A stretch of DNA of 64,000 nucleotides from an uncultured Thermoproteaceae archaeon (GTDB lineage Archaea > Thermoproteota > Thermoprotei > Thermoproteales > Thermocladiaceae), in NCBI GenBank assembly GCA_964575955.1, contig CAZNTG010000006.1, positions 96,001 to 160,000 of the forward strand, given 5' to 3'. Positions 1 through 49,213 of this stretch are shown here, one piece after another. The position numbers were made by a program, and so were the translations under genes. The notes under the pieces were generated by a model. The model did no database searches. It saw nothing but the letters and a program-made list of their open reading frames with translations, and was not told the DNA's origin. Position 1 is the stretch's first letter. Every line of letters begins with the position of its first letter.

Positions 1-393
1 ATCAACATAGCATAATGTAACGATATTGTAGTTAGATATCTTTAATGCATATTCTAGTGCTTTTATAAATTTTTCAAAGTTTATTATTACACAATCTCCA
101 TTAACTATAAGTATTGGTTTTCTAATTATCGTGTTAATACACATACACATGTCAATACAGTAGTCAACTCCTGACATGACTATTATATCTACATACTCAT
201 ATTTTCTCAATAATTCTATTAATCTTCTATGTCTTACAGATGTTAATACTACAATACTCTTGAATATATTTTTAAGTGTTTCAATTAAATATTCTATTAT
301 TGTTTTATCTCCTATCTTTAGTAGATGTTTTTCAGGATTTCTTAATCTACTTCCTGATCCTCCAGCCATTATTACTACAATATTCAATCCCAC
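1..393 (-). CDS. NTP transferase, CobY-like (adenosylcobinamide-phosphate guanylyltransferase); 3' end runs off the window
   Basis: Not in the ORF track. Hand translation from GTG at 393 gives MGLNIVVIMAGGSGSRLRNPEKHLLKIGDKTIIEY...ILIVNGDC, with the MAGGxGxR..EK nucleotidyltransferase motif. The start overlaps the upstream stop codon. Confidence 0.7.
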   Translation of the reverse strand, partial: MGLNIVVIMAGGSGSRLRNPEKHLLKIGDKTIIEYLIETLKNIFKSIVVLTSVRHRRLIELLRKYEYVDIIVMSGVDYCIDMCMCINTIIRKPILIVNGDCVIINFEKFIKALEYALKISNYNIVTLCYVD

Positions 394-1592
394 TTTCTTC
401 TCAATTTTAGAAGATTTCTAGACATATCTTTAGGATATTTTGATAGTATTTTAGCAGCAGTACACATGTATAATGCTGTTTTTAAATCTTCTATAGAATT
501 TCTAGTTTTTACACTAGCCTCAGTTGTTAATATTAGATCAATCTCAAGTTCTACAGCGATTGCTGAGAGAAGAGCATAAACACCATGAGGATCAACATCC
601 ATCAACTCTACAACATTTCCAAAACCCATCAGGATCGGTCTATCTTTAAATAGTTCTCTAATATTTACATATCTACATATTGATTTTGATAAGTTGAATA
701 TTGGAGGCTTAAGTAGAGGATCAATTATAGGTATAGCACCTCTAGATTCTAAATACTTAGAACAATATTCAAAATATGAATGTAGATAATTAATATCATC
801 AGAATCTCTATCAGGAATTACGACAACACCAACATCTTTAATATTAAAATTCAACTTATCTAACATTCCTCTAGTAATACTTAAAATAAGGTCAACACCA
901 GCTCTAACTCCAGCTTCAATTTCCTGTATCGATAAGGAGTCAACACTTATACCAACATTATCAGGAATCTCTCTGGATAACTCTCTAACAACTTCATATA
1001 CTCTAGCTGGATTAGGACTACCAGCAACACATCCAACATCTATAATAGAGGCACCTTCATCAACATATTTTAAAGCAATTTCAACACATGTATTTAGATT
1101 TATTCTAGTTGCATCAACAATCTCAGCAATTATTAGAGGAGGTAAACCATTAACTCTAAATCTAGATCTTCTACCAAACTCAGCTCTATAATATCTAACT
1201 CTATATGAGTTCTCTATAACAAAACTCTCAATGTATTCCTGATACTTAGATATTTTCTCATATAAATTTTTAATATCTCTAGGTATATCATTACAGTACT
1301 TTAAATACATTAATAATGCTGGAATATCACTAACATGTTTTAGATATATTACAGGTACATTATCTACTTTTATACTAAATCCATATGGAACTATCACTAG
1401 GTCAAACCTATCTTTAGAAATTTCTTTTCTAACAATATCTTCAATATACTTATCTGATAGAAATGATATTAATCCACCAGTCATGTTTAGATATTTCAAC
1501 TCTACATCACTTGGAAATATCTCTGGAAAAATATTTCTCAATTTCTCAAGAACTTCAATTCCAAACCTACCTGTAACTACTAGAATCTTCAT
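384..1592 (-). CDS. Dihydropteroate synthase-related protein (methanopterin-biosynthesis-associated family)
   Basis: N-terminal KILVVTGR; pterin-binding barrel motifs IIAEIVDA, GASIIDVG, ISVDS, IIDPLL, GFGNVVELMDVD, LTTEASVKTR. Confidence 0.8.
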   Translation of the reverse strand: MKILVVTGRFGIEVLEKLRNIFPEIFPSDVELKYLNMTGGLISFLSDKYIEDIVRKEISKDRFDLVIVPYGFSIKVDNVPVIYLKHVSDIPALLMYLKYCNDIPRDIKNLYEKISKYQEYIESFVIENSYRVRYYRAEFGRRSRFRVNGLPPLIIAEIVDATRINLNTCVEIALKYVDEGASIIDVGCVAGSPNPARVYEVVRELSREIPDNVGISVDSLSIQEIEAGVRAGVDLILSITRGMLDKLNFNIKDVGVVVIPDRDSDDINYLHSYFEYCSKYLESRGAIPIIDPLLKPPIFNLSKSICRYVNIRELFKDRPILMGFGNVVELMDVDPHGVYALLSAIAVELEIDLILTTEASVKTRNSIEDLKTALYMCTAAKILSKYPKDMSRNLLKLRRKWD

Positions 1593-2521
1593 ATGAAGTA
1601 TGTTATAATTTTCTCAATCAATCTTCTTCCAAAAATCTTAACATTACCATAACCATAGACAGTAACTTGTGATACTGAAAACATCTCTATTGGAGCTTTA
1701 AGTAGAAATTCAGAGCCATAAGTTTTTACAAGTTCTATAAACGGTTTAGCATCTTCACTTGTTACACATCTGCTTAAAATATTTTCAACATCTTCTACAG
1801 TATCTTCATTTAGTAGTATTGATACAGTACCTGTATATCTAATTGAGTCATTACATGCAGCTATATTTGTAATATAGTCTTCTCTGACTGGTGGAATAAT
1901 ACAGGTCCCAATACCTGAATTTACTACGTCTAGATTTACATTATCTAAAATTCTCATTAATAAAACTTCAATAACTCTAGAACATATTTGCACCATCCCA
2001 GACATAGATTTTGATGATGTTAATATTATGTATATCTTATCATTCTGTATATTTGACATAATTTTATCTATAACATCTCTAGAAGGTTCTGATGGTGGTA
2101 TACACTCTACTATGTATATAGGCTTCCATTCAAAATCTTTAACATAACTTTCTAACTTCTCAAAGAATTTTCTAGGTTTTCTCAAAAGTACTTTTCCAGG
2201 TCCTGATATGTAGCATGTAGATTCACCACACTTTAAAGCCCATGTTGCTGATTGTGAACATAGACATGCTGTTACTGGATTGTCTGTAGTTATGTTGATC
2301 TGTAACATTGGTATGTTTTTCTCATGTATAATCTCTATATTAACTTCTGAGAGATTGTTCATAGATATTTCAGATATAATCTTACCAACTTCCAATCCTG
2401 TTTTTGTTACAATTCCTGTATCGATTATATATGCTCTATCTATCTTCTTTACATGTATTCTCAATCTATCTGACTCAGCTATAAGTTTTTCAACTAAATC
2501 TACTACATCTCCACATTTCAT
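1589..2521 (-). CDS. mch: Methenyltetrahydromethanopterin cyclohydrolase (divergent)
   Basis: IIDTG..GLEVG, TTDNPVTACLCSQ..W, SGPG, VQICSRVIE (catalytic R..E), NDSIRYTGTV, KPF; 310 aa. Confidence 0.8.
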   Translation of the reverse strand: MKCGDVVDLVEKLIAESDRLRIHVKKIDRAYIIDTGIVTKTGLEVGKIISEISMNNLSEVNIEIIHEKNIPMLQINITTDNPVTACLCSQSATWALKCGESTCYISGPGKVLLRKPRKFFEKLESYVKDFEWKPIYIVECIPPSEPSRDVIDKIMSNIQNDKIYIILTSSKSMSGMVQICSRVIEVLLMRILDNVNLDVVNSGIGTCIIPPVREDYITNIAACNDSIRYTGTVSILLNEDTVEDVENILSRCVTSEDAKPFIELVKTYGSEFLLKAPIEMFSVSQVTVYGYGNVKIFGRRLIEKIITYFI

Positions 2522-3372
2522 TCTATCGGTTCTAATAATTTTTCTAGAGGTTTTATAATGTGTATGTTATGTTCATAATTTATTATCAATCTTCCTCTAC
2601 TTTCCATCAATACATCACCTATGAATATTGCAAACCTACCTTCAATCTTCCTACCTTTAAACTTTATTCCGCTAACTATCGAGTCTATGTAGAAGCTTGG
2701 TAATATTTCTTCAACTTTGCCTAAAATTATTATTCTACCACCAGACATTCTAGCTCCAGGGTATATGCCTGCATTTCCCATTATCAGGATATTTCCACCC
2801 TTCATACCATATCCAGCGAAGTCGTTTACATTACCTTCAATTATTATATCACCACTCTTCATACCATGACCTATGAATGATTCTGCATTTCCATGTATAA
2901 TTATTGTTCCACCTCTCATACCATGACCATACATCATCCCTATCAACTTACCTCCAACAAATGAGCCAGCATTACCGTAGACCTCTATCTTTCCATTCTT
3001 CATTAGTGAGCCTAGATAGTGATCTGCATCTCCATAGATTACTAATTCACCACCACGCATTCTATATCCTGCTAATGGGCCAACACTACCTCTAACTTCG
3101 ATTTTTCCAATACTCATTCTATATCCAACATATCTTAATCTTCTAGTTCCATCTCCTTCAAATATTATATCAATACCTTCTTTATCTTCCTCGATCCAAT
3201 ATTCAATATCAAATAATTCTTCAACTCCTGATTTTCTATTTCCAATCCATATCTGCAATTCTCTCAATACTTCTTTAATATCTCTATTGATAAATTTGTC
3301 TGGAATTATTTGTCTTACTTCAACAGGAACTTTAGGATCTTCTTTAAATTTAAATTTTATTACAATCTTCAT
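2518..3372 (-). CDS. fwdC: Formylmethanofuran dehydrogenase subunit C
   Basis: N-terminal VPVEV..IIPD, WIGNR..ELFDI, followed by repeated GxxMxGGxIxIxGNA beta-helix motifs. Confidence 0.9.
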   Translation of the reverse strand: MKIVIKFKFKEDPKVPVEVRQIIPDKFINRDIKEVLRELQIWIGNRKSGVEELFDIEYWIEEDKEGIDIIFEGDGTRRLRYVGYRMSIGKIEVRGSVGPLAGYRMRGGELVIYGDADHYLGSLMKNGKIEVYGNAGSFVGGKLIGMMYGHGMRGGTIIIHGNAESFIGHGMKSGDIIIEGNVNDFAGYGMKGGNILIMGNAGIYPGARMSGGRIIILGKVEEILPSFYIDSIVSGIKFKGRKIEGRFAIFIGDVLMESRGRLIINYEHNIHIIKPLEKLLEPIE

Positions 3373-4559
3373 TTTTCAAAAAATGTTGATATTCTTCTAA
3401 TAGCTTCTTCAATTCTTTCAGGACTCTCTTTTGCGAAACACATCCTTACATGATATCTACCTGCTGAACCAAATGCAGAACCGGGAACTACTGCTACATG
3501 TACTTCTTCTAGTAGTCTATTTACAAATACTTCATCATCAATGTTTATCTTTTTCATATAGTTTGATAGATCTACAAACATGAATAATCCAGCTCTAGCT
3601 TTTACAGTCTTAGCTTCAGGTAGATATTTTAATATTGCTTGATACATTCTATCTCTTCTCTCTCTATATATTGGAATCACTTCCTGTAAATATTTAGATT
3701 TGTATTTTGTTACAAATAGTTTTGCTGCATATTGTGCTGGTGTTGGTGGATTTAGATTTACATACTGTATAACTCTTCCTAACTCTTTAACTATACTTTC
3801 ATGAGCAACTACATATCCAAGTCTCCACCCTGGAAGTGCAGCACCTTTAGACATTGTGTTTAGTGCAATTACATTTTCAAGATCTCTTCTAACTATGTAA
3901 TTATGCTCACCCTCGTAGTATAGTTCTCTATATGCTTCATCGTAGATTATGTAGAATTTATAATCTATAGCAAGATCTAGAATAGTCTTCACAAGTTCTT
4001 CACTAGCTACCCTACCTGTTGGATTATCAGGATTTACAAATATTAACATCTTAGTTTTTCTTGAAACTGCATTTTTAACATCTTCAATATCTGGTTCATA
4101 GTTATTATTAACAGATACAGGAATATCAACAACTTTAGCTCCAAAATACTCGGCTAATGGTCTATATAGCAGATATTCTGGATTAAATATTACAACTTCA
4201 TCACCTTCATCTATAAGTAGCATATATATTGCAAGTATTGCCTCACTAGAACCTGTTGTAAGTATTATATTTTCAATACCAATACTAGACTTACTATCTC
4301 TAGAGTAGTCCTCAGCTATTGCCTGTCTAACATCCTCAAGACCCATAGATGGTGTATATCTACTAAAGTTGAATGAGTCTCTCAACATCAAATCCTTCAA
4401 CTCCTCTAACAGCTCTCTACTTGGAGGAAGACCAGGTTGACCAATATGTAGTTCATACACATCTATACCAGTCTTCTTCAATTTAGCAACTTCAGATACT
4501 AGAAGTCTAATTTTAGAGCCAGGAAGTATATTCGCTTTTCGTGATAATGTTAATGGCAC
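3369..4559 (-). CDS. Class I/II PLP-dependent aminotransferase
   Basis: HIGQP, TTGSSEA, NPDNPTG, YDEAY, SKGAALPGWRLGY, VPGSAFG. Confidence 0.92.
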   Translation of the reverse strand: MPLTLSRKANILPGSKIRLLVSEVAKLKKTGIDVYELHIGQPGLPPSRELLEELKDLMLRDSFNFSRYTPSMGLEDVRQAIAEDYSRDSKSSIGIENIILTTGSSEAILAIYMLLIDEGDEVVIFNPEYLLYRPLAEYFGAKVVDIPVSVNNNYEPDIEDVKNAVSRKTKMLIFVNPDNPTGRVASEELVKTILDLAIDYKFYIIYDEAYRELYYEGEHNYIVRRDLENVIALNTMSKGAALPGWRLGYVVAHESIVKELGRVIQYVNLNPPTPAQYAAKLFVTKYKSKYLQEVIPIYRERRDRMYQAILKYLPEAKTVKARAGLFMFVDLSNYMKKINIDDEVFVNRLLEEVHVAVVPGSAFGSAGRYHVRMCFAKESPERIEEAIRRISTFFEK

Positions 4560-4616
4560 ATATCTACATTTCTTAAAGAATTCATAAATATTCTCACCTA
4601 CATCTTGAATTAGGTT

Positions 4617-5153
4617 ATGAAGGTAGAAATAGATAATTATACTATAATCATCAAACCATTACTCATATATGCAGATAAGCTAGATAGAGTATGTATTGAA
4701 AATATATTAAAAAATATTAGAACAAAATATACACACATATTCATAAATCCACATAGAGTATTAGATCATAGACAAGTAATCTATAGCATAGTTCAAAGTA
4801 TTAAGAATAGAAGTATAGGTATTGAAATTGCAAGAAAGATAGAGCTAGACATACTTGGATATATATGTTGTACAGATCAAATTAAGAATATAGTTGAAAA
4901 ATGTATAGAAGATTATAATGGAAAACTACTACTAATATCATACTGCATGAATTGCAATGAAGAGGATCTATTAAGAGAACAATACAATATTCTAGACAAC
5001 ATATCTAAACTATGTGACACATCTATAGTAGACTTAGCTATATGTTTCTCATGTTATAAAATTGTGAAATTATCTGAATATTGTAATGATGTTAGTGATG
5101 TTATGGATTTTATGGAGAAGATTGTTGAGATGTTGTTAAGAAGAGTTGAATAG
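4617..5153 (+). CDS. KEOPS complex subunit Cgi121-like
   Basis: ARKIELDILGYICCTDQIKNI matches the Cgi121 ArxxxxEilxy..gtxQI.xA pattern. Confidence 0.55.
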   Translation: MKVEIDNYTIIIKPLLIYADKLDRVCIENILKNIRTKYTHIFINPHRVLDHRQVIYSIVQSIKNRSIGIEIARKIELDILGYICCTDQIKNIVEKCIEDYNGKLLLISYCMNCNEEDLLREQYNILDNISKLCDTSIVDLAICFSCYKIVKLSEYCNDVSDVMDFMEKIVEMLLRRVE

Positions 5154-6003: not shown

Positions 6004-6867
6004 CTATTCATATAGAAATCTAACTATGACTACAGGATGGTGAGGAAAAATCTTCATAACTTGACACCACTTAACTAGTGTGTAATCTATAGCACCAACA
6101 TATCTAGCAGTCTCAAGAACAGTCCTTACAGGACTTTTCAAGTATTTAGAAATTCTCCTAGCTATATAAAATATTCTGTAAGGTATTAGAGATCTATGAC
6201 CTCTAAAATATGTAATTGTTGGGCATTTTATAAAAAGTTTATAACTTTTAAAACATTTAGCTAATACATATGTCAATACTCCAAGATTAATACATCCAGG
6301 AACGTGTACAGGTCTTGAGACAAGTACAATATTAAACTTCTTGATAATTATAGATAAATCACTATCAACAACACATATAGATAATAGTCTACATCTATGA
6401 TAAATCTCATCAATAATCTTCTTAATAATAGCGTAGCTGTCTCTAGATGGATAGGTTACGTAGAAGTATGGTAGTAGAGATGTATCAACACCACATGTAG
6501 ATACGGGTTTTAATATTGATAATAAGTTTTTACTAATTGAAGAACATAGATGTAGATGTCTTGCTAAGTCTATATCTCTAACATTACATAGAGATTCGTA
6601 GATATATTCTCTAAATAATCTTCTAAATAATCTACACCATACATATTTAAATATCTTCACATTTAATAGATCTATCTTAGATATCTTAATTAGAGATTCA
6701 TCATATATGAAACCTAGTGATGTTAATAGAGCTTTCTCAGATATGAATATTATCGTGTTTTTATGTTCAAATTTTTTAGCTATTCTTAATAACTTTTTAA
6801 CAATTCTATATCTATCTCTTGTAGGTATCCAATATCTACTTCTAATTCTAAATATCTTCACCTTCAT
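6004..6867 (-). CDS. F420-0:gamma-glutamyl ligase-like protein (divergent CofE-like family)
   Basis: YWIP, IFISEKAL, LKPVS.CGVDTSLLPY.YV.YP, VVDSD, H.PVVIVR; last gene of the cofD-cofG operon. Confidence 0.65.
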   Translation of the reverse strand: MKVKIFRIRSRYWIPTRDRYRIVKKLLRIAKKFEHKNTIIFISEKALLTSLGFIYDESLIKISKIDLLNVKIFKYVWCRLFRRLFREYIYESLCNVRDIDLARHLHLCSSISKNLLSILKPVSTCGVDTSLLPYFYVTYPSRDSYAIIKKIIDEIYHRCRLLSICVVDSDLSIIIKKFNIVLVSRPVHVPGCINLGVLTYVLAKCFKSYKLFIKCPTITYFRGHRSLIPYRIFYIARRISKYLKSPVRTVLETARYVGAIDYTLVKWCQVMKIFPHHPVVIVRFLYE

Positions 6868-8035
6868 ACTTACGATCTACAAGACCATCTTCATCAACTA
6901 TGTTTAGAACTCTCTCACGTATTATATCTGAAAGCCATACTTTAGCATTTTTAATATATTTAGGATATATTGGTAATCTCTCTCTTAACATATATCCAAA
7001 ACTCTCAGTAACTTTTCTAATTTCACATATCTTCGGCCATCTATAGTCAATATTTATGTAGTCTGGAGTTATTGGAGATATTCCACCCCAATCATTAATA
7101 CCTGCTAGTATTAGAAGTCCAAAGCTTTCTGGATATAGATTTGGTGGTGATTGTATTGATGTTAAGTTTCTTACATATATCCTATATATCGATATTATTT
7201 TCATTATTTCATATATTGTAGGTCTTCTACAACATGTACATAGTCTCTCTGAAATACTACCTGGAGTGTATGGTTGTATTATTATTTCTTGAATATTATC
7301 AAAGTTTTCAAGAAGTTTTTTAGTCACTATTAATGTTCTAGCTCTATCTATAGAATCTTCACAAATACCTACCAATATTCCTGTTGTAGTTGCAATTCTC
7401 AGTCTATAGCAGTTGTATATAAATCTAAGCCTAATATGTGGCATTTTTGTACTTGATTCATAATGTGGCATACCTCTTCTATTCAATCTATATGATATAC
7501 ATTCAAGCATGAGACCTACACTTGCGACATATGGTTTTAAAAGTTTCAATTCTTCAAAACTTAGATAACCTATATTCAAGTGTGGAATAGCAAATTCAGT
7601 ATTTTTCAAAACCTTATCTAGAAATGTTATTACATACTCAATATAGTTTTTAAATCCCCACATCTTCAATCTATCTCTAACTTTTTCATATCTATCAGGT
7701 CTCTCTCCTGTACATACTAGAATTTCTTTAATTTTAAACTTCTTCTCCCACTTCTTAACTTTATGTACAATATCTTCAATATTCATAATATATGCTTCAG
7801 AACTTTCAGGATCTCTTCTAAAGTTACAATAGTAGCACTTGTTTGAACATATGTTTGTTAATGGTATGAAGACTTTTCTAGAGTATGTTATTATTTTTCC
7901 AAAATATCTATCTCTAATTTCACATGCTTTAGATATTAGTTGTAGAATATCTATGTAGTTACTATCTTCGAAAAGTTTAGCTATTTCAGACAACCCCGTA
8001 ATCTTCATCTCTTCAGTGCCCGTAGTTTTCATCAT
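6848..8035 (-). CDS. cofG: FO synthase subunit 1 (radical SAM)
   Basis: ITYSRKVFIPLTNICSNKCYYCNF, PHLNIG, ASVGLMLE, TTTGILVG, IQSPPNL, AGINDWGGISPITPDYIN, LRERLPIYP. Confidence 0.93.
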   Translation of the reverse strand: MMKTTGTEEMKITGLSEIAKLFEDSNYIDILQLISKACEIRDRYFGKIITYSRKVFIPLTNICSNKCYYCNFRRDPESSEAYIMNIEDIVHKVKKWEKKFKIKEILVCTGERPDRYEKVRDRLKMWGFKNYIEYVITFLDKVLKNTEFAIPHLNIGYLSFEELKLLKPYVASVGLMLECISYRLNRRGMPHYESSTKMPHIRLRFIYNCYRLRIATTTGILVGICEDSIDRARTLIVTKKLLENFDNIQEIIIQPYTPGSISERLCTCCRRPTIYEIMKIISIYRIYVRNLTSIQSPPNLYPESFGLLILAGINDWGGISPITPDYINIDYRWPKICEIRKVTESFGYMLRERLPIYPKYIKNAKVWLSDIIRERVLNIVDEDGLVDRKYEGEDI

Positions 8036-8961
8036 ATTTCATTTAGTATCTTCTCTGCTAGTCTTATACAGTCTTTCTTATCTTTCATAACTATATTATC
8101 AATAATGACGTTAATCTTTCTTTCATATGCATACTCTATAACATCTTTATCAGAGAAATCACAGACTATGTGTGTTATATTAAATTTTGAGTATAGTTCT
8201 AAAATACCTTTTGAAGATCCTTCATATCCTATAGCTTCCATGAGCTTGTCTGTTACTCCACTTATAGGTCTGTTACCAATCATTGGTAACACACATATCT
8301 TAGGCTTATTCAACTTCCTGATAATGTCACCTATAGGATTTGTATAGAGTATTGGTAGTATACTTACAGGTGGGCTACTTGGACCTATTATAACTATGTC
8401 AGATTTTTCTAAAAACTTTATAGCTTTAATACATGCATATGCATTTTCAATACCTTCAAATCTTATTGATATTGGTTTTAGACTTTTACAATATTTAACT
8501 ACAAACTCTTGAATATTTAATTCTCCAATTTCTGTAAGTATCATTGTTCTAACTCTACAATCTGTCATTGGTGATATGTTTGTAGGTATTCCCAATCTTG
8601 TACATACGTAATCACATATATTTGAAAGTTTATAACCTTTCTTAAGTAGGTATGTCCTAAGTATGTGCATTGCTAGATCTCTATCACCAATATTAAACCA
8701 AGTATCTTCAAGACCAAGTATCTTTGCCTGATTTAGAAAGTTGAATGTGTCTTCACGTATACCCCACATCTTGTCTAAGTCAAGCATTCCTGATAGTGCA
8801 TATATTACTGTGTCTAAGTCTGGAGATATGTAGAGACCATTCCACTCAAAATCATCTCCAGTATTCACAATTATGTATACATTATTGATACCCAACACCT
8901 CTACTAATCCAAGTAGAAGCTTTACGCCTCCTGTACCTCCTGTTAATAATGTCACTTTCAT
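8032..8961 (-). CDS. cofD: 2-phospho-L-lactate transferase
   Basis: LTGGTGG.KL, VNTGDD...GLYISPDLDTV.Y.L, WGI..DTF, WFNIGDRDLA.H, IGPS. Confidence 0.93.
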   Translation of the reverse strand: MKVTLLTGGTGGVKLLLGLVEVLGINNVYIIVNTGDDFEWNGLYISPDLDTVIYALSGMLDLDKMWGIREDTFNFLNQAKILGLEDTWFNIGDRDLAMHILRTYLLKKGYKLSNICDYVCTRLGIPTNISPMTDCRVRTMILTEIGELNIQEFVVKYCKSLKPISIRFEGIENAYACIKAIKFLEKSDIVIIGPSSPPVSILPILYTNPIGDIIRKLNKPKICVLPMIGNRPISGVTDKLMEAIGYEGSSKGILELYSKFNITHIVCDFSDKDVIEYAYERKINVIIDNIVMKDKKDCIRLAEKILNEI

Positions 8962-18581: not shown

Positions 18582-19640
18582 TTGATGATAATACTGATTA
18601 GGAAAATATTGAGAAGAATTGTAAAGATTATTAAGAAGAATAGAGTACTAATCTCAATACTAATATTTATAGTAGTTACAATAATTAATGGAGCACTATT
18701 CTACTATGCAGAACATGTAGTTGGTGGTAATAGAAATTTAACACTCTTCAAAGCACTATATTGGGCTATTGTTACTGCAACAACTGTGGGATATGGTGAT
18801 ATTGTTCCTAAGACATTTCTAGGACATGTAATAACTATAGAGACAATATTTGTAGGTATTGCAACATTTACAATCATGGTTTCACTAATAGCAGAAGCAT
18901 TTATAAGTAGGACGATCAGGGGAATGTTTGGTCTTGGAAAAGTGAGAAAGACAGACGTCCTAGTTATAGGGTATGGAGAGATTTGTAAAGAAGCTATTGA
19001 TGAGTTAAAGATGAATAGACCAGACTACAGGATTACATGGCTTGTAGAGAGAAGACCTAGAGAAATTCCTGAAGATGTTGAATATGTTGTTGGTAATCCA
19101 ACAGATCCAACAACACTTGAGAGAGCTGGTGCTAGAACTGCTAGATATGTGTTAATATGTATGAGTAGCGATTCAAAAATTATACATACAGTACTCTCAT
19201 TGAGGAAGATTAATAAGAAAGCTAGAATTGCAGCAATTGCATGGTCTAAGAGAGCTCAAGAACTTCTAAAAGAGGCTGGTGTTGCAATTGTAGTTCCATT
19301 GAGAATTATTGGTAGAATGCTTGCAAGTGCAGCATTTGAACCTGTAATACCAATATTTCTAGAACAGGCAACAACAATTAGAGGTGTTGCAGATCTTATA
19401 GAGGTTGATGTTGATGAGAAGTTTGAGGGTAAGAGTATTAGAGATCTAGTATCTAGATTAGAGTCTAGTGAAGGTAAGAGATTCATACCATTAATGCTAT
19501 GTCATAGTGATGGTAAGACAATACTTGCACCTAGTTGGGATCTAAAACTTGAACTTGGAGATAGACTACTACTATTGAAGATTAATGTCGAAACTACAGA
19601 TATTGCTAAGACTATAACTAGCGAACCTTCAACTTCTTAA
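18582..19640 (+). CDS. Potassium channel with RCK (TrkA-N/C) domains
   Basis: YWAIVTATTVGYGDIVP selectivity filter; VIGYG and GNPTD RCK motifs. Confidence 0.92.
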   Translation: MMIILIRKILRRIVKIIKKNRVLISILIFIVVTIINGALFYYAEHVVGGNRNLTLFKALYWAIVTATTVGYGDIVPKTFLGHVITIETIFVGIATFTIMVSLIAEAFISRTIRGMFGLGKVRKTDVLVIGYGEICKEAIDELKMNRPDYRITWLVERRPREIPEDVEYVVGNPTDPTTLERAGARTARYVLICMSSDSKIIHTVLSLRKINKKARIAAIAWSKRAQELLKEAGVAIVVPLRIIGRMLASAAFEPVIPIFLEQATTIRGVADLIEVDVDEKFEGKSIRDLVSRLESSEGKRFIPLMLCHSDGKTILAPSWDLKLELGDRLLLLKINVETTDIAKTITSEPSTS

Positions 19641-20352
19641 GTTCTTGAAGTATTGGTATCTCTCTCAACTTCTCAGGTGGAAGTTTCTCCCATATTATAC
19701 CTCTAGGTCTATCTTTCACTCTTCTAGTCTCTATAATTCTTGTAGGTGTTACTATGAGATCTACAGGTAGGTCAAATTCATCATATGGAATTTCAAAATC
19801 TGTCAATACTTGTAGATCATGTACTGTTGTTACTATGATTGTACTATAATCAACTTTACCACATTCTGAAAGTATTGCCCATTCAAGTTCTGCATAACCT
19901 TCACCTTTACCAAGTCTAATACCTCTAAGATCAACAGCTACTGAGCCAATAACTACTAAATCTACTTTTGGAAGATTCCAAGGTTTTACACTTATTCCCC
20001 ATCTATATGCTCCAGATATTGTTGATGCTTCTCTATATGCATATTTAGGTATTTTTGATGGATCTAGAAGTAGAAATCCATTCCTAATCCTAGGTGTTGG
20101 CATTATTAGGATCTTTCCCTGTTCAAGACATATCTCTCTAATTCTTCTTTGAGGACTGTCAGGGTTTACCTTAACAACTTTCGCATTTTTAAATATTTCA
20201 AGTTTTGCAAGATTTTCACATGCAATATCTGAACCTTCGAAGTTTGGAATTCTACCATATACAGGTCTTGGAAAAGTTGCAATATTCTTCTCCTCTAACA
20301 ATCTCCAAATTCTCCACCTAATCTCACTCTTTACCTTAGATATACTACTCAC
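19618..20352 (-). CDS. 5-formyltetrahydrofolate cyclo-ligase paralog (MTHFSD-like)
   Basis: [52 protein letters not shown]. Confidence 0.88.
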
Positions 20353-22286: not shown

Positions 22287-25200
22287 TTACCTTTGTGATG
22301 GTGGTCCTAGTACTGATACTAATCTCTTTCTTCTCCAGTGCTGGTACTCTATCAATCCAATCACTATTATGATTATCACAATGAAGATTATCACAATCCA
22401 TAGTGCTATCTGCTGCCATGATACATAGCCAACGCCTGGCCACCACCATCCAGTTACTGGGACCTTAACCTTTAGCTCGTATGTTGTTGGCTTTGATATT
22501 TCTATTGTGTAGGTCTTAGACTTTACATTTCCTGGTGCTGTTGCCATTGCTACACATGTTATTGGTGTTGTAGCTACATTCTTTGGTAGTGGTAGTATGA
22601 AGCTTAGCTTACCTTTACCATATCCTGTGTATATTACCTTACCTCCATATGTACAGTTTACACTTATGGATGCTATGTTTAGTGGACTGCCGCTTGCACT
22701 GACTGCTAATACCTTCACTTCAGCTCCTGGTATTGTTATTACTGGAGTTACTACTGATGATGGTGTCAGCTCGTAGGTCTCTTCATATCCTAGTGGTAGT
22801 CCATTCACACTTAGAACTTTCACAACTAGCTTTGTTGCACCTAGTGCTGCTACATGTACTGGACTTACTGTTACTGTTCCACTACTGCCTGTTGTTAATG
22901 TCCATGTTGCTGCCTTAACAGTGGTTAGTGACTTCATGTTTGGAACTATGTATGGTCCATATGTTGCATATGTTACTGCTGGTACATACTCTGTAACTTC
23001 TACCTTAGCTCCAGCTAGCGGTTCTGTCACTACTCCTGGAACTTGTAGTTGTACTGTTACTGGTATCTTTAGATATGCTGTACTGACCTTAACAGTTGTT
23101 ACAAATACTGGGTTTGTTGATCCTCTCTGTAGGCTTAGTGGATAGTTTAGTAGTACTGGTACTAGGTATGTCTTACCTCCTGATGTTATTGGTATGAATA
23201 CGTCTACTAGTAGGTTGCTTGCTGGTACTGAGCTTACACTACCTGCAAATGCTGTTCTTATATCTCTAATTACTGCTCCTCCAGTACTGTTTAGTATTGC
23301 TGATGCGTAGAAGTATTGTCCTCCAGTTGCTGCATCCTTTACAACTACTACAGCATTCTTCAGTGGTAATCCTGTCTTTGTCAATACTTGTAGTACTAGT
23401 GAGTATACCCATGTGTATACTAGGCTTACATTCTGCTGTGCATTACCTAGCTTCTGTACATCTTCCTGCTTAGCACTATCATATATTACTATTGGTACTG
23501 CATATGAGCTAAATGATGCTACTGGTGCATCTCCTCTTGGTCTACATACTGTGAATAGATATCTTACATAGCTGTCATACCAGAATATCATTACTCTAGC
23601 ACCATATGGTAGTACTGATAGTAGACTGCCGTTTGGTCCTATGAATGTTATTGCCATTGGATGACATAGGTCTCTCGATACGTTGTCAAATACTACCACT
23701 GTGGCATTTACTATTGGTTTACCATTCCATCCAAATACCTTGCTTAGGCCGTATATTGCTTCTGGTCCTAGGAATAGCTTACCTACAGGTACCCATCCAC
23801 CACTTACTGACATGACCTTAACCTTAACTCCTAGCTTGTTCACTCTAATTACTGCTGGTTCTCTATATACTGTAAATGCGTAGTATATGTCTGATCTTGT
23901 TGTCCAGTTAATAGCTATCTCATACTTCACTAGCTCGTCTGGTGTTACAACTATCTTCTTCATTGTTGGTGTGTAGAATGTGTAGCTTGGTGGCCAGTAC
24001 TTGTATGCTATCTTTGGCTCTGGTACATATTCTACAAACATCTTACTCTTGTATGTTAGGCATGGTACTGCATCAGCATTTACTAGGAATGTTGGTCCTA
24101 GTAGGTATGCTATTTCACCTGTCTTGTTAGTCTTGCTTGGTAGTACTAGTGGCTTTGTTGTTGACTTTACAACTATGTCAAATGTGTTGTTGTTGTAGAA
24201 TCTTATCAATGTTTCAGGTATTGAGTTTAGTGTTACTACACTTGGCATTACACCTACACTGAATAGTTTCTCATTCTTTGTTGCGTAGTTGTATATTAGT
24301 GTTGATGTTGCACCTGTTAATGGTCCTAGTGTTATTGCTTTACGCTCAACTACGTCAGCCTCACCTGTTAGTCCAACATATACCTTGCTTACGTTTACAT
24401 TCATTCTTGCAAAGTTTAATAGTGCGTATGTGCGTGGCTTAACTATTAGGTATGGTACTCCACTTACCTCAGACACATTAATGCCGAAGTACTCTCTTGA
24501 ACTGAATGGTCCACATGTCCAGTATCTACATACTACTACGCCACTGCTTGTTGGGAAGCATGTTATGTTACGTTCTACATATCTTGGAGTCTCGTTAATT
24601 ATGTATATTCTTGCTATATGAGCACCTCTCAATACGTTTGTTGTTATTGTCCACTCTGGTAGTGGTATTCTCACTACACCATTGTCAACATTTACTAGTA
24701 GTAGTAATGGACTTCCGAAGTAGTATCTCCATGCTGTGCCAGGTAGTAGCTTCTCTAGGTATAGTGATGTTGTCTCTACTGTTCCGTTTGGTAGTTGTAG
24801 TACACGTACTTCTGTCTCAGTAATGTTGAATGGTGTTCCACGCCATATTCCTGCAGTTATGTTCAATGTTCCGTATCCTGTACCGTTAACCCATATAATT
24901 ATCTTGACTCTCTTCTCAATATCGTAAATCTTACTATGATTTACAGGTACTAGCATTACTAATACTCTTGGTGTCTGTAGAATCTTCTCAACAGCCTTAG
25001 TGATGTTTACTGGTGATACTAGTACTACTCTCTTCAACTCACCTCCAGATGTGTATTCTGCTATCATTGATACTGTCAAGTTAGTTATCTCATATAGATC
25101 ACTTGCATTAACCATCAAGTATAGTGCTCCAATATCATACTTGAACACGTTTCTAATAATTAGCTTCTTCTTCTCAACCTTACTTAATGATAGTGATACT

Positions 25201-28200
25201 AGTGCACTAGTCTTCTTGTATATCATGTATGGTGCTTCTAACAACTCCGAGAGTGGTAATCCATATGGTATAGATCTTCTCAATGCCTTCGCTGATGCAA
25301 AGCTTGTTATGTTTAGTATAGTTGGCTTTCCATTAACGTAAACTACTAGATGTAGCATTCCGTAGTATAGTGTCATATTAATTCCTAGTGATCCGTTTGG
25401 TAGTAATTCTATTCCAGTATCTGGCATGTACTTTTCGTTTCCTGTTACTGCCATTAAGCTTGGTAGTATGTACGTTACATTTTCGTATGTCTCATTTTCG
25501 TACATTCCGATTATTGATGGAACTCCAACAATTGCATTTGTTGTGTTAAATCCGTTCACTATTGGTAACACGTTTACTAATGCCGTACCTGTATGTACTG
25601 TGAATGTCCTTGCTAGTGTATCTGCGAATAGTAGTCCTAGGAATACGTGTCTTAGTGTCTCATTGTCTCTCGTGTATAGCTTGAATGTTACTGGCTTTAC
25701 AGTGCTTACTATTACTATACTTCCAGGCTTTACTGTTACCTTCTTACCTGTCATTGTTGTTAGTGTTATTGGCTTAGTGACGTTTATTGTTGTGCCGTTT
25801 GGTAGTACTATGTAAGTCATGTTGTATGGTGGTATTGTTATTACATTGTCAAAGACCTTATAGCCTAGGTAGTATACCTGTGCTTCATATGTCTGTCCTG
25901 GTAGTATGACTCTCCACACGTTACCTGCTCCAAATATTGGTGATATGTAGAATAGTGCGTATGGTGTGCTTGATGATGCATTAGCTATTAATGCTGCTGC
26001 GACATAGTAGCTCATGTTTACCATGTAATCTTTTAACCATGCATCTTCTCCAGTCTCTTCATACTTCGTTAATGCAACCTCAGCATCATGTCTATAGCTC
26101 TTTGCAAGTTCTTCATACCTCTCCTTAGCCCAATTCATACCTATCATTCTGAAGTCTGCAAGTTTGACTAAGTTAGCCATACTTGATTTGCTATACACTG
26201 TACCGTTGATTACTAGAGTCAGGTTGTATAGTATTACTGGACATCTTAATGGTACTGAGCATGGATATACTGGTAGTGTGTTTAGTAGTACTAGCTTACC
26301 ACTGTCATTGTAGACTACGTATACTGGAACTTTTCTAATGTTTACTATTCTCAGTGCAATGTTCTTTCCAACTGTTGCCGGTACTGTTATCTTCGTAACA
26401 TTTGCCACTAGTCCAGCATCTAGTGATGCACGTGTACCTAATGTGTATACCCACTCTGTTGGTTTGTAGCCTAATATTAGTGATGCATATTCTGCATAGT
26501 TGTTGTGATATTCTGCTAAGGTTCTGTTTACATTTATATGTTCTATGAACCACTTCTTATCATCCTTTGGTATTATTGTTCTAACTACAACTATTACACT
26601 TCTATTAGCTGGTAGTGCACCGATATATGCTAAACCTTGATCATTTGTGATCGCTCTCCATAACTCTTCACCAGTCTTTGTACTGAATACCTGTATTACA
26701 AATCCTGGAAGTGGTACTCCACTGCTTGACTCAACCTTGAACCACTCATACACTATTGGGAATGCTATCTCTGTCCATGTTAATCCACGTAGTAGCTGTG
26801 TTATTGTTAACTTCACAGGCTTTCCTGTTGTTCTATTCACTGCATATAGTGTATATCCTGCATAGTTTAGTATGAATGTGTATGTTGCCTTTGTCTTCTC
26901 AACTGTTGGCCAACCTTCTTTGAATGTTACTGGTACTGGTATTAGTAGTTGCTGTACATAGCGTGCTGGTACTGTTGCAATTACCTCAGGTTTACCAGCG
27001 ACATATCTTACTACTGATACTGTTGCTGATACACCTGCAGGTAGTGCAGTTATTAATGGCTTACCGTATAGTGTTGTGAAGTATGTCATTACAGTTACGA
27101 ATGCTGATGCAACTAGTAGGTTAACTGCTGTTACCTTCTCTGCAGTTACTCCAGTTATCACAGGTACTGTTGATGTGTATGGGAATGCTTGACCTTCCCA
27201 ATATCCACCAACTGTGTAGAACTTGTTTGTTCTATTCCACATTGATGAGAAGTTTGGAATCTTACTCTTCTTATAGACATTCAACACCTTGTAACCACCT
27301 ACAGGCCATACCCATGCATTTACTGCTGTGACATTTGTACCTACTAATCTTGAGTATGATCCTACAGCAAACTCTCCAACACCTATAGTTATAGGTCCAT
27401 ACTTCACATAGACTGTGTAGTAGTAGTATGTCTCATTTGTTCTTGGACCGATAATGCGTACTGATGTTAGTGATGTAATGTTATACTCTACTGGTGCTGC
27501 AGTTACTAGGTATATTACAGGTGATAGCTGTAATGCACCTGCAATGTATGTTGGTCTTGCAGCTACTGCATCATCTAGATCACATGAGAATGTTACTGAT
27601 AGGTTTGCATATAGTGTTCCTGGTGCTGCAATGTACATTGACCTGTATATTAGTACTCTCATGTTTCTGTATAGTATTGGAGTTATTGATAGTTTAGGTG
27701 CTGCAGTTACGTTAATTCCAGGTACATATCTTCTAATTCTTATAACTACTGGTACTATGCTTGTCTTAAGTATTACATTACTGACTGGGAACTTTACTTC
27801 GGTCATTTTGAATATTGTCTTATTAACTAGCTTAGTTATGTCAAATCTAGCAACCATGTCATAGTGGTAGTATATCTCTACATAGAAGTGGTGAATCTCA
27901 AATGATGGACCTCTATATACGTACTTTGGTATGTATGACTCATTTATGTATATGTCGAAGTATCTTGTACCTACTAATGTTGCGTAGTTCTCAGGTCCTG
28001 TTGATATGAATATCCTCTTGCCTGTTGTAGTTACTTCATACCAGCGGTAGCTCAACATGTTGAATAGTTCTGTTGGTAGCTTTGTTCCAAGTAGTGATCT
28101 AAGCTTTGATGTGTCTAGTATGTATGTTGTTTTTGGAACATTTACAAATGCGTATGGTTGTAATCTATACTTTATGCCTACAGCTTTTGGATTATATGCG

Positions 28201-48739: not shown

Positions 48740-49213
48740 ATGATAAAACAACTTATAAGTCAGGTCATCTTTGCTAGTTTCATGCGTGTACTTACCTGTA
48801 TCAAACTTTCATTTTCATCAGCGCATACATTAACTAAAGATCTTGGAACTCAAGCATGTTCAACTATCCATGGACATAACTATACTGTTGAACTATGTTT
48901 TACATCTGAAAATCCACTTCCATGGGTCTACGATTTCAAGAGATTGAAAGTTATTGCAAAGAAGGTTATTGATCAACTTGATCATAAACTTCTACTTCCT
49001 GAAAAGATATGTAGAAGTAGTAACGTATCTATCCCAGGTACTGACCCATCAATAATATGTCTACCTGTTGAAGAAGTTACAGCTGAAGAATTAGCACTCT
49101 ACATTGCTAAGGAAGTTACAAATGTAATAAATAATGAACAGATAAAAATATCTCTTGTAAAAGTTAGACTTTATGAATCAGATACAAGCTATGTTGAGGT
49201 TGAACTACTATGA
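48740..49213 (+). CDS. queD: 6-carboxy-5,6,7,8-tetrahydropterin synthase (PTPS family)
   Basis: FSSAH, CSTIHGHNY, DF..LK, LDH, TAEELA, LYES; true start probably near 48782. Confidence 0.82.
   Translation: MIKQLISQVIFASFMRVLTCIKLSFSSAHTLTKDLGTQACSTIHGHNYTVELCFTSENPLPWVYDFKRLKVIAKKVIDQLDHKLLLPEKICRSSNVSIPGTDPSIICLPVEEVTAEELALYIAKEVTNVINNEQIKISLVKVRLYESDTSYVEVELL

What the first reader, a model, noticed from the sequence alone, without database searches (positions are those of the whole stretch)
1..4559. Methanofuran/tetrahydromethanopterin C1 operon in an apparent crenarchaeon
Seen: five co-oriented genes with overlapping stop/start junctions (ATGA-type at 3369-3372, 2518-2521 and 1589-1592): aminotransferase, fwdC, mch, DHPS-like, cobY-like. 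Known: FwdC and Mch belong to the methanogen-type H4MPT methyl branch, which is uncommon in Crenarchaeota. Inference: this organism has or had an H4MPT-linked C1 pathway, with F420 genes next door. Mch is strongly diverged but keeps the R-x-x-E catalytic pair, and fwdC is separated from fwdA/B/D.
Basis: partly seen in the sequence, partly recalled or inferred. Interest (0 to 1): 0.7.

Follow-up and report, generated by a model that had tools for sequence, protein, structure and literature searches.

The report
Wood-Ljungdahl C1 operon, fast-evolving Mch
This is a real five-gene operon carrying two enzymes of the archaeal (methanopterin-type) carbon-fixing pathway plus cofactor-making genes, in a non-methanogenic archaeon whose genome holds the whole pathway, so the genes are working parts and not leftovers.

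Summary
Window 1-4559 (minus strand) carries aminotransferase, fwdC, mch, a DHPS-like gene and a MobA/CobY-like NTP-transferase. Three junctions are ATGA overlaps and one is a 10-nt overlap.

The "relic" worry is refuted. The same 1.52-Mb genome (94.7% complete) encodes fwdA, a fused fwdD-B, two ftr, mtd, mer, cdhA/C/D/E and RACo. It also encodes MfnB, an MfnF-like protein, two RFAP synthases, MptN-like, CofG/H/D and CobS. No McrA or MtrH was found. This is a complete archaeal H4MPT Wood-Ljungdahl pathway in a non-methanogen.

Among 98 genomes of its anonymised class, Mch occurs in 18 and CdhC in 11; both occur in all six scored genomes of the genus. The 4-hydroxybutyryl-CoA-dehydratase-like family shows the opposite pattern within the order.

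Mch is a vertically inherited orthologue that evolves faster than FwdC only in this genus. It keeps the Arg-x-x-Glu pair and 20 of 27 conserved columns.

The operon layout is derived: kin have fwdDB-fwdA-fwdC-mch. The aminotransferase is a family-wide housekeeping gene.

Side result: the unannotated ORF beside cofG has a CofE fold.

Verdict: a new member of a known kind, of moderate interest. The organism could not be named.

The parts
3369..4559 (-). Class I/II PLP aminotransferase (396 aa, GTG start). It is the first gene of the operon and is probably a housekeeping Asp/Ala-type transaminase.
   Evidence: PF00155 scores 212 bits and no NCBIfam equivalog cut-off is reached. Orthologues of 50-59% identity occur in every genus of the family, including Mch-less genera. 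It lies upstream of fwdC in G000 and G004 but not in G006.
2518..3372 (-). fwdC, formylmethanofuran dehydrogenase subunit C (284 aa, GXGXG beta-helix).
   Evidence: TIGR03122 scores 220.9 bits against a cut-off of 130.65, and PF01493 scores 57.5 bits. The fwdC-mch adjacency is conserved in 14 class genomes for which both genes lay in the fetched loci.
1589..2521 (-). mch, methenyl-H4MPT cyclohydrolase (310 aa), a fast-evolving form specific to this genus.
   Evidence: PF02289 scores 182 bits; TIGR03120 scores 173.6 bits, below its cut-off of 228.8. The match to A. fulgidus Mch 4gvq has E 3.3e-32, with R/E of SRVIEV aligned to GRIVET; the E186Q entry 4gvr reads GRIVQT. G000 keeps 20 of 27 conserved columns.
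384..1592 (-). Dihydropteroate-synthase-like protein (402 aa), a short form of TIGR00284. It is the predicted pterin-RFAP condensing enzyme of H4MPT biosynthesis.
   Evidence: TIGR00284 scores 163.4 bits (cut-off 256.65) over model positions 1-394 of 497. Pterin_bind scores 41.7 bits. It is the only DHPS-like ORF in the genome by tblastn and phmmer. In G091 the homologue lies next to RFAP synthase.
1..393 (-). 5' part (131 of 184 codons) of a MobA/CobY-fold NTP-transferase. The rest lies upstream of the window (G000:C6:95839-96000).
   Evidence: PF12804 scores 40.2 bits, CobY NF045495 52 bits (cut-off 250) and TIGR00454 48 bits. A homologue sits at the same position in G004 (TIGR00454, 60 bits).
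4560..4616 (.). 57-bp A+T-rich spacer between the operon and the divergent Cgi121-like gene (4617-5153). It is the presumed promoter region, with ATATTTAT about 25 nt upstream of the GTG start.
   Evidence: Sequence read. The promoter role is inferred and was not tested.
6004..6867 (-). Unannotated 287-aa ORF overlapping cofG by 20 nt: a strongly diverged protein with a CofE (F420:gamma-glutamyl ligase) fold.
   Evidence: No Pfam or NCBIfam hit, even at E 10. The AlphaFold model has pLDDT 80.3 and pTM 0.81. Foldseek's top 5 matches are all A. fulgidus CofE (E 6e-4 to 6e-3) and the next match has E 0.5. VIA-align gives Z 11.1-11.6 with 186-189 residues aligned, and the next row has Z 3.6.
6848..8035 (-). 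cofG (FO synthase subunit).
   Evidence: NF004884 scores 325.1 bits against a cut-off of 209.
8032..8961 (-). cofD (2-phospho-L-lactate transferase).
   Evidence: TIGR01819 scores 271.7 bits against a cut-off of 257.45.

Best explanation
The five genes form one translationally coupled operon. It supplies two parts of a complete archaeal H4MPT/methanofuran Wood-Ljungdahl pathway. FwdC is the scaffold subunit of formyl-MFR dehydrogenase. Mch interconverts N5-formyl-H4MPT and N5,N10-methenyl-H4MPT. Two further genes are predicted cofactor-biosynthesis enzymes. The DHPS-like protein would join the pterin to RFAP in H4MPT synthesis. The NTP-transferase would most likely activate a cofactor precursor with GTP, as CobY does for the cobamide of CdhDE, or as CofC does for F420. 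A housekeeping aminotransferase rides along. The rest of the pathway is scattered over other contigs: fwdA, fused fwdD-B, ftr, mtd, mer and CODH/ACS. The organism lacks Mcr and Mtr, so methyl-H4MPT feeds acetyl-CoA synthase and not methanogenesis. I favour the reductive direction (CO2/CO to acetyl-CoA). The kin that carry this pathway lack the key-enzyme family of the dicarboxylate/4-hydroxybutyrate cycle, and the genome has CooS, [NiFe] hydrogenases and an FrhB-like protein beside cdhA. What is shown: the gene content, the operon structure, retention of the catalytic residues, and the phyletic patterns. What is inferred: enzymatic activity, direction of flux, and the roles of the DHPS-like and NTP-transferase genes.
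For: Operon structure. Own genome: FwdA 707.5 bits against a cut-off of 392.75. FwdB 447 bits against 327.8, inside a 638-aa ORF that carries an N-terminal FwdD-type domain and a 4Fe-4S insert. Ftr 378.6 bits against 297, immediately upstream of the window, plus a second ftr-like gene. Mtd 362 bits. Mer 370.6 bits against 348.7. CdhC 205 bits, CdhD 355 against 252.9, CdhE 521 against 306, CdhA 607.7 as best hit, and RACo. Cofactor genes: MfnB 118.5 bits and TIGR03123/MfnF-like 301.6 against 244.1; RFAP synthase twice; MptN-like 225.6 bits; CofH 450.9 against 426; CobS 123 bits. McrA and MtrH were not found. Mch is intact in G000 and in 5 of its 6 genus relatives and keeps R182/E185 and 20-23 of 27 conserved columns. 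Phyletic pattern: CdhC is in 11 of 98 class genomes and always in genera that also have Mch. PF11794 (4HBD-like) is in 0 of 7 g1, 0 of 1 g3 and 0 of 2 g7 genomes, against 12 of 14 f2 and 6 of 7 g5 genomes. Electron input: two CooS, a CooF-CooS-group-4-hydrogenase cluster and other [NiFe] hydrogenases.
Against: There are no expression data; no RNA run was listed. Mch scores below NCBI's equivalog cut-off (173.6 against 228.8), and the DHPS-like and NTP-transferase genes score far below theirs, so their functions rest on distant homology and context. No CdhB (epsilon) was recognised. PF11794 is not specific to 4-hydroxybutyryl-CoA dehydratase, and kin are not independent samples. The genome also has DsrA/B-like genes, as its family does (274 bits, below the cut-off). 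The pathway could therefore run oxidatively, as in Archaeoglobus. The genome is 94.7% complete, so the absences of McrA, MtrH and CofC are 'not found'.
Confidence: 0.8

Rival explanations
1. The pathway is the same but runs in the oxidative direction. Acetyl-CoA would be oxidised to CO2 through methyl-H4MPT, Mch and Fwd, coupled to sulfite or sulfur respiration, as in heterotrophic Archaeoglobus fulgidus.
For: G000 has a divergent pair of DsrA/DsrB-like genes at C6:257355-259853 (274 and 111 bits). The arrangement matches that in the other genera of its family. No Mcr or Mtr was found. An FrhB/FpoF-like protein lies beside cdhA.
Against: The DsrA score is below the equivalog cut-off of 392.85. 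The WL-bearing kin lack the 4HBD-like family, which leaves no other recognised CO2-fixation route. CooS and hydrogenase modules fit lithotrophy. Both directions may be used, as in Archaeoglobus.
Confidence: 0.3
2. Relic genes: fwdC and mch are decaying leftovers of a lost pathway.
For: Mch is strongly diverged (TIGR03120 score below its cut-off). fwdC is detached from fwdA/B/D. One genome of a sister genus (G091) carries split mch and split DHPS-like genes.
Against: Every other step is encoded, and most score above curated cut-offs. Mch is an uninterrupted ORF in 6 of 7 genus genomes, and the seventh genome is 69% complete. The catalytic pair and 20-23 of 27 conserved columns are kept. The coupling overlaps are intact.
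Confidence: 0.04
3. Foreign origin: the cluster reached this genome by recent horizontal transfer, or sits on a mis-binned contig.
For: The pathway is patchy in the class, with Mch in 18 of 98 genomes. In the wide 125-row tree, the link between the g1+g3 clade and the other class sequences is unresolved.
Against: The contig is 621 kb and carries argS, alaS, exosome and ribosomal genes. Its G+C content (0.329) matches the other contigs. In the 16-row tree g1 is monophyletic (100/100). Its sister is g3 of the same family, followed by g7 of the same order and then the other families, which mirrors kinship. The g1+g3 clade is starred at 96 in the wide tree.
Confidence: 0.05
4. The operon serves only biosynthetic C1 supply or formaldehyde handling through an H4MPT-like carrier, and not an acetyl-CoA pathway.
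For: Pterin-dependent genes such as ketopantoate hydroxymethyltransferase and a 5-formyl-THF cyclo-ligase family protein lie in the window. TIGR00284-type DHPS-like genes also occur in Mch-less lineages and in the Sulfolobus control.
Against: Fwd, Mtd, Mer and a full CODH/ACS with its corrinoid activator are present and co-distributed. That is more than C1 supply needs.
Confidence: 0.08

Closest known systems
Non-methanogenic archaeal H4MPT Wood-Ljungdahl pathway of Archaeoglobus fulgidus (Mch structures 4gvq/4gvr/4gvs)
   Same: The enzyme set is the same (Fwd, Ftr, Mch, Mtd, Mer, CODH/ACS) without Mcr or Mtr, and Dsr-like genes are present. Mch aligns over residues 7-291 with the R183/E186 pair conserved. 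That these residues are catalytic is my recollection of the structural paper, which I could not retrieve. It is supported here by the E-to-Q difference between 4gvq and 4gvr.
   Different: Mch is only about 28-30% identical. The host belongs to a different, anonymised class, one whose cultured-looking kin lack the pathway. The gene order also differs.
fwdDB-fwdA-fwdC-mch clusters, with ftr and mptN beside them, in other genera of the same class (g7, g18, g20, g22, g27, g31)
   Same: fwdC sits immediately upstream of mch. MptN-like and ftr genes lie within a few kb. A homologue of the CofE-fold ORF lies in the g7 cluster.
   Different: In this genus fwdDB and fwdA have left the cluster for other contigs. 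An aminotransferase precedes fwdC, and the DHPS-like and NTP-transferase genes follow mch. Mch scores 155-193 bits here, against 306-439 bits in those genera.
Wood-Ljungdahl pathways reported in other TACK/Thermoproteota lineages: marine Korarchaeota (PMC10469681) and Culexarchaeia (PMC9723716). For both papers I saw the search listing and abstract only.
   Same: Archaeal WL genes in non-euryarchaeal, largely uncultured thermophile lineages.
   Different: Those are other classes. In passages of PMC9802188 and PMC12794621, the Thermoproteales-type lineages are described as using the dicarboxylate/4-hydroxybutyrate cycle.
TIGR00284 dihydropteroate-synthase-like proteins (about 500 aa) of methanogens and Sulfolobus
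   Same: Homology runs over model positions 1-394 and includes the pterin-binding barrel.
   Different: The protein lacks the C-terminal part of the model, about 100 residues. Its score is below the cut-off. Full-length forms in this class occur in families f4 and f5, which have no Mch.

Membership tests
Methenyl-H4MPT cyclohydrolase (Mch; PF02289 / TIGR03120) | Pfam MCH domain over the gathering score across the whole protein | tested here: met
   182 bits against 25, residues 7-298 on model positions 7-300 of 311.
Methenyl-H4MPT cyclohydrolase (Mch; PF02289 / TIGR03120) | NCBIfam equivalog cut-off | tested here: not met
   173.6 bits against 228.8. It is the only core WL enzyme of this genome whose best equivalog-type model falls short, apart from CdhA.
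Methenyl-H4MPT cyclohydrolase (Mch; PF02289 / TIGR03120) | Arg-x-x-Glu pair (A. fulgidus R183/E186) and conserved core columns | tested here: met
   R182/E185 are kept in all 6 genus sequences. G000 keeps 20 of the 27 columns that are at least 85% conserved in 111 other Mch sequences.
Methenyl-H4MPT cyclohydrolase (Mch; PF02289 / TIGR03120) | Cyclohydrolase activity on methenyl-H4MPT | not testable with these tools
   Needs an enzyme assay.
Formylmethanofuran dehydrogenase subunit C (TIGR03122) | Equivalog cut-off and GXGXG beta-helix domain | tested here: met
   220.9 bits against 130.65, and PF01493 57.5 bits against 32.5.
Formylmethanofuran dehydrogenase subunit C (TIGR03122) | Partner subunits A, B and D encoded in the same genome | tested here: met
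   FwdA lies at C3:49957-51681 and the fused FwdD-B at C15:2092-4008. They are not adjacent to fwdC.
Archaeal H4MPT Wood-Ljungdahl pathway | All methyl-branch steps plus CODH/ACS | tested here: met
   Fwd A/B-D/C, Ftr, Mch, Mtd, Mer and CdhA/C/D/E are present. CdhB was not recognised.
Methanogen / methane metabolism | McrA and MtrH | tested here: not met
   No match to PF02249 or PF02007 in the 94.7%-complete genome. Both families ring in the two methanogen controls.
TIGR00284 DHPS-like protein | Model cut-off and full-length architecture | tested here: not met
   163.4 bits against 256.65, with model positions 395-497 missing. Pterin_bind itself is over its cut-off, at 41.7 bits against 25.5.
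CobY (adenosylcobinamide-phosphate guanylyltransferase, NF045495) | Equivalog cut-off | tested here: not met
   52 bits against 250. Only the general MobA-like fold family PF12804 is met, at 40.2 bits against 27.
MfnC (methanofuran-pathway aminotransferase), considered for the first gene | Distribution tied to methanofuran/H4MPT-bearing genomes | tested here: not met
   Orthologues of 50-59% identity occur in the Mch-less genera g2, g4 and g5, while the Mch-bearing g7 has only a distant hit at E 1e-46. No MfnC model or reference sequence was available for a direct comparison.
CofE (F420:gamma-glutamyl ligase), for ORF 6004-6867 | Sequence model PF01996 | tested here: not met
   No Pfam hit even at E 10, and a profile of 8 homologues finds no CofE chain in the PDB by sequence.
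CofE (F420:gamma-glutamyl ligase), for ORF 6004-6867 | CofE fold | tested here: met
   Foldseek ranks 1-5 are CofE chains (E 6e-4 to 6e-3, TM 0.45-0.57). VIA-align gives Z 11.1-11.6, rmsd 3.4-3.5 and 186-189 residues aligned, and the next row has Z 3.6. A shared fold does not prove the activity.

The most novel reading that the evidence does not exclude
This genus, its sister genus g3 and family f3 would be surviving Wood-Ljungdahl lineages inside an order whose well-sequenced members use the dicarboxylate/4-hydroxybutyrate cycle instead. The order is probably Thermoproteales-like. The Mch tree mirrors kinship, and the two pathways are mutually exclusive among the 41 relatives searched. Together these would mean that the ancestor of the order fixed carbon by the H4MPT Wood-Ljungdahl route, and that the 4-hydroxybutyrate cycle replaced it later. 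In this genus the remaining pathway has been rebuilt. The fwd operon is broken up, Mch is accelerated, CofE is diverged beyond sequence recognition, and no canonical CofC is present, so the NTP-transferase in this operon may stand in for it.
Probability: 0.4. Interest if true: 0.6.

Novelty: new member of a known kind. Interest (0 to 1): 0.4.

Why it matters
It places a complete, apparently functional archaeal Wood-Ljungdahl pathway in a lineage whose close, well-sequenced relatives lack it and carry the 4-hydroxybutyrate-cycle marker instead. This bears on which carbon-fixation route is ancestral in that part of the archaeal tree.

It also offers natural material for enzyme study: a genus-wide, gene-specific acceleration of Mch with the active site preserved.

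Finally, it flags two F420 annotation gaps. One is a CofE recognisable only by fold. The other is a missing CofC. Both would make automated pathway calls in such genomes wrongly score F420 biosynthesis as incomplete.

Tried and rejected
1. Naming the organism failed. All genome handles are anonymous. It is an inference.

2. Expression: no RNA holder was listed.

3. The MfnC role for the aminotransferase was rejected on its phyletic pattern.

4. The MobA role for the NTP-transferase is unlikely, because a better MobA candidate exists at C11:2090-2713 (98 bits, best hit MobA). CobY-like and CofC-like roles could not be separated. CobS is present in 6 of 7 genus genomes. Canonical CofC was not found in 0 of 7 g1, 0 of 1 g3 and 0 of 2 g7 genomes.

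5. A changed pterin carrier as the cause of Mch acceleration was considered and is weak. Ftr, Mtd and Mer bind the same carrier and score above their cut-offs.

6. None returned a paper describing this pathway in Thermoproteales or Thermocladiaceae. 'MJ0107' and 'MptD/MptE' returned nothing. The de Crecy-Lagard 2012 paper is not held, and the A. fulgidus Mch mechanism paper was not found. The supplements of PMC11362583 (its Dataset 8 lists WL-bearing MAGs) were not opened and may already list this lineage.

7. Earlier findings of this scan: three look-ups, nothing returned.

Full report
OBSERVATION. Window 1-4559 holds five minus-strand ORFs: aminotransferase 3369-4559, fwdC 2518-3372, mch 1589-2521, a DHPS-like gene 384-1592, and an NTP-transferase that runs off the window at base 1. 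The full NTP-transferase is 184 aa (L010:2394-2948). The minus-strand letters at 3369-3372, 2518-2521 and 1589-1592 are ATGA. The last junction is a 10-nt overlap. Genome-wide, 103 of 968 co-oriented adjacent ORF pairs from my crude caller overlap by 4 nt, so four overlaps in a row mark a coupled operon.

Family scans gave these scores:
- FwdC TIGR03122: 220.9 bits, cut-off 130.65.
- MCH PF02289: 182 bits. TIGR03120: 173.6 bits, below its cut-off of 228.8.
- Pterin_bind: 41.7 bits. TIGR00284: 163.4 bits, below 256.65, matching model positions 1-394 of 497.
- NTP_transf_3: 40.2 bits. CobY NF045495: 52 bits against 250.
- Aminotran_1_2: 212 bits.

cofG (6848-8035) and cofD (8032-8961) both exceed their equivalog cut-offs.

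THE REST OF THE PATHWAY. The window is G000:C6:96001-160000 of a 1.52-Mb, 15-contig genome. The genome is 94.7% complete with 0.5% contamination, and its G+C content is about 0.33 on all contigs.

Directly upstream of the window, and convergent with the operon, lie an MptN-like ATP-grasp ligase (225.6 bits) and ftr (378.6 bits against 297). Elsewhere in the genome:
- fwdA: 707.5 bits against 392.75, on C3.
- A 638-aa fused FwdD-FwdB with a 4Fe-4S dicluster insert: 447 bits against 327.8. It lies next to mtd (362 bits) and a CooS on C15.
- mer: 370.6 bits against 348.7.
- A C9 cluster of an FrhB/FpoF-like gene, cdhA, cdhC, cdhD and cdhE, with a divergent RACo gene.
- A second, diverged ftr-like gene.

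Cofactor genes are also present: MfnB beside a TIGR03123/MfnF-like gene, two RFAP synthases, CofH, CobS and a MobA candidate.

McrA and MtrH were not found, while both families ring in the methanogen controls. The genes in the window are therefore parts of a complete, non-methanogenic H4MPT Wood-Ljungdahl pathway.

DISTRIBUTION. Among 41 relatives, Mch is found in 9: G000, 5 of its 6 genus relatives (the exception is 69% complete), g3 and both g7 genomes. Among the 98 class genomes at least 80% complete, Mch is in 18 (9 of 36 genera) and CdhC is in 11 (5 of 36 genera). All six scored g1 genomes have both genes.

The HpaB_N family, which includes 4-hydroxybutyryl-CoA dehydratase, shows the reverse pattern among the 41 relatives. 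It is in 0 of 7 g1, 0 of 1 g3 and 0 of 2 g7 genomes, against 12 of 14 f2 and 6 of 7 g5 genomes. The family is not specific to that enzyme and kin are not independent samples, so this is suggestive only.

Passages I read in PMC9802188 and PMC12794621 describe the DC/4HB cycle as the route of Thermoproteales-type archaea. My searches found no paper reporting WL in such lineages. I did not open the supplements of PMC11362583, which may list it. All handles are anonymous, so the taxon name remains an inference.

MCH. The closest solved structure is A. fulgidus Mch (4gvq, E 3.3e-32). The query's SRVIEV aligns with GRIVET, and the E186Q entry reads GRIVQT.

Against 1.84 billion representative proteins there are 454 hits at E 1e-3 or better, 166 at 1e-10 and only 8 at 1e-30.

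I built a 16-row tree. G060 (fragments), G068 (cut by a contig end) and G091 (split gene) were left out. In it g1 is monophyletic (100/100). Its sister is g3, followed by g7 and then the other families, which matches kinship. End branches in g1 are 0.24-1.28 changes per column.

In a 125-row tree with unlabelled representatives, g1+g3 is a starred clade (96). The other class sequences form a second clade (92). The link between the two clades is unresolved. Vertical descent is therefore well supported within the family and merely compatible at class level.

Pairwise identities were taken over 14 genomes; G002 and G008 were omitted because fwdC was not in their loci. The acceleration is gene-specific. 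Within g1, Mch is 33-48% identical against 54-72% for FwdC. Between g1 and the other genera, Mch is 25-35% against 38-48% for FwdC. Among the other genera the two genes are about equal, for example 57% against 59%.

Of the 27 columns at least 85% conserved in 111 other Mch sequences, G000 keeps 20 and its genus-mates keep 21-23. These include D34, Q90, W94, S106-G-P108, R182, E185 and D225. This fits a working enzyme under changed or relaxed constraint outside the active site. I cannot say which of the two applies.

OPERON HISTORY AND THE OTHER GENES. In g7, g18, g20, g22, g27 and g31 the layout is fwdDB (about 568 aa), fwdA (about 570 aa), fwdC and mch, with mptN and ftr beside them. The g1 layout is derived. 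fwdDB and fwdA have left the cluster. An aminotransferase precedes fwdC in G000 and G004 but not in G006. The DHPS-like and NTP-transferase genes follow mch.

The aminotransferase has orthologues of 50-59% identity in every genus of the family, including Mch-less ones. The Mch-bearing g7 has only a distant hit. It is therefore a housekeeping enzyme and not a dedicated MfnC.

The DHPS-like gene is the only such ORF in the genome. In G091 its homologue sits beside RFAP synthase, which fits the pterin-RFAP condensation step. However, TIGR00284 hits occur in 18 of 98 class genomes, including the Mch-less families f4 (6 of 7) and f5 (3 of 3). They are missing from the other Mch-bearing genera. The gene is therefore a pterin-pathway gene in general and not an Mch companion.

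The NTP-transferase could be CobY-like, since CobS is present. It could instead replace CofC, which was not found in g1, g3 or g7. This question stays open.

SIDE RESULT. ORF 6004-6867 overlaps cofG by 20 nt and matches no Pfam or NCBIfam model. An alignment of 8 homologues found no CofE chain in the PDB by sequence. Its AlphaFold model (pLDDT 80.3, pTM 0.81) matches only A. fulgidus CofE. Foldseek gives E 6e-4 to 6e-3 and then nothing below 0.5. VIA-align gives Z 11.1-11.6 and then 3.6. Homologues lie in the ftr/fwd clusters of G026 and G091.

DIRECTION OF FLUX. Two CooS genes, a CooF-CooS-group-4-hydrogenase cluster, further [NiFe] hydrogenases and the lack of the 4HBD-like family favour reductive use. 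DsrA/B-like genes shared with the whole family leave Archaeoglobus-like oxidation open.

VERDICT. The relic alternative is refuted. The system is a new member of a known kind, with a modest evolutionary twist.

Noticed in passing
window 6004-6867 (-): An unannotated 287-aa ORF, translationally coupled to cofG and cofD, has a CofE fold (Z 11.6) but no detectable sequence-model match. Homologues sit in the ftr/fwd clusters of G026 and G091. It is probably an unrecognised, diverged CofE family.
   Followed up: yes
G000:C15:2092-4008 (L015:580-2496): FwdD and FwdB are fused in one 638-aa ORF, with a 4Fe-4S dicluster domain inserted at residues 341-395. The g7 homologue is a 568-aa FwdD-B fusion for which I did not check the insert. 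mtd and a CooS-type CODH flank the gene.
   Followed up: partly
whole genome and relatives: Canonical CofC (PF01983) was not found in any of the 7 genus genomes, nor in g3 or g7, although CofD, CofG and CofH are present. Only two small MobA-fold NTP-transferases are available to cover the MobA, CobY and CofC roles.
   Followed up: partly
G091:C12 (L049): One genome of a sister genus that otherwise lacks the pathway carries a contig with ftr, fwdC, mptN, RFAP synthase and the CofE-fold ORF. On that contig mch is split into two ORFs, and the DHPS-like gene is split as well. This may be decay in progress, sequencing error or mis-binning (81% complete, 3% contamination).
   Followed up: no
window 22287-29570 (-): A giant 2427-aa ORF has no Pfam or NCBIfam hit. 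It has an N-terminal signal-like segment, a C-terminal membrane anchor, a Thr/Val/Tyr-rich composition and 64 N-x-S/T sequons. It is probably a large surface or S-layer-type glycoprotein.
   Followed up: partly
G000:C7:18013-22426 (L055): A CooF-CooS-(NuoC/D-fused hydrogenase large subunit)-ferredoxin-NuoB cluster. It resembles a CO-oxidising, H2-evolving module.
   Followed up: no
G000 contig ends: C6:1-1184, C6:620392-621285, C1:863-1108, C5:18279-19250: [NiFe] hydrogenase large-subunit fragments sit at four contig ends. This suggests that two near-identical hydrogenase operons broke the assembly.
   Followed up: no
window 19618-20352 (-), 48740-49213 (+), 52094-52972 (+): Further pterin/C1-linked genes lie in the window: a 5-formyltetrahydrofolate cyclo-ligase family protein (105 bits), a PTPS/QueD-family protein and ketopantoate hydroxymethyltransferase.
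   Followed up: no
G000:C7:100618-101619 (L011): A second, diverged ftr paralogue: NF002554 219.7 bits (cut-off 297) and 32% identity to the main Ftr.
   Followed up: no
G000:C6:257355-259853 (L073): A divergently oriented DsrA-like/DsrB-like pair (274 and 111 bits against the DsrA model, below its cut-off). The same arrangement occurs in the other genera of the family.
   Followed up: no
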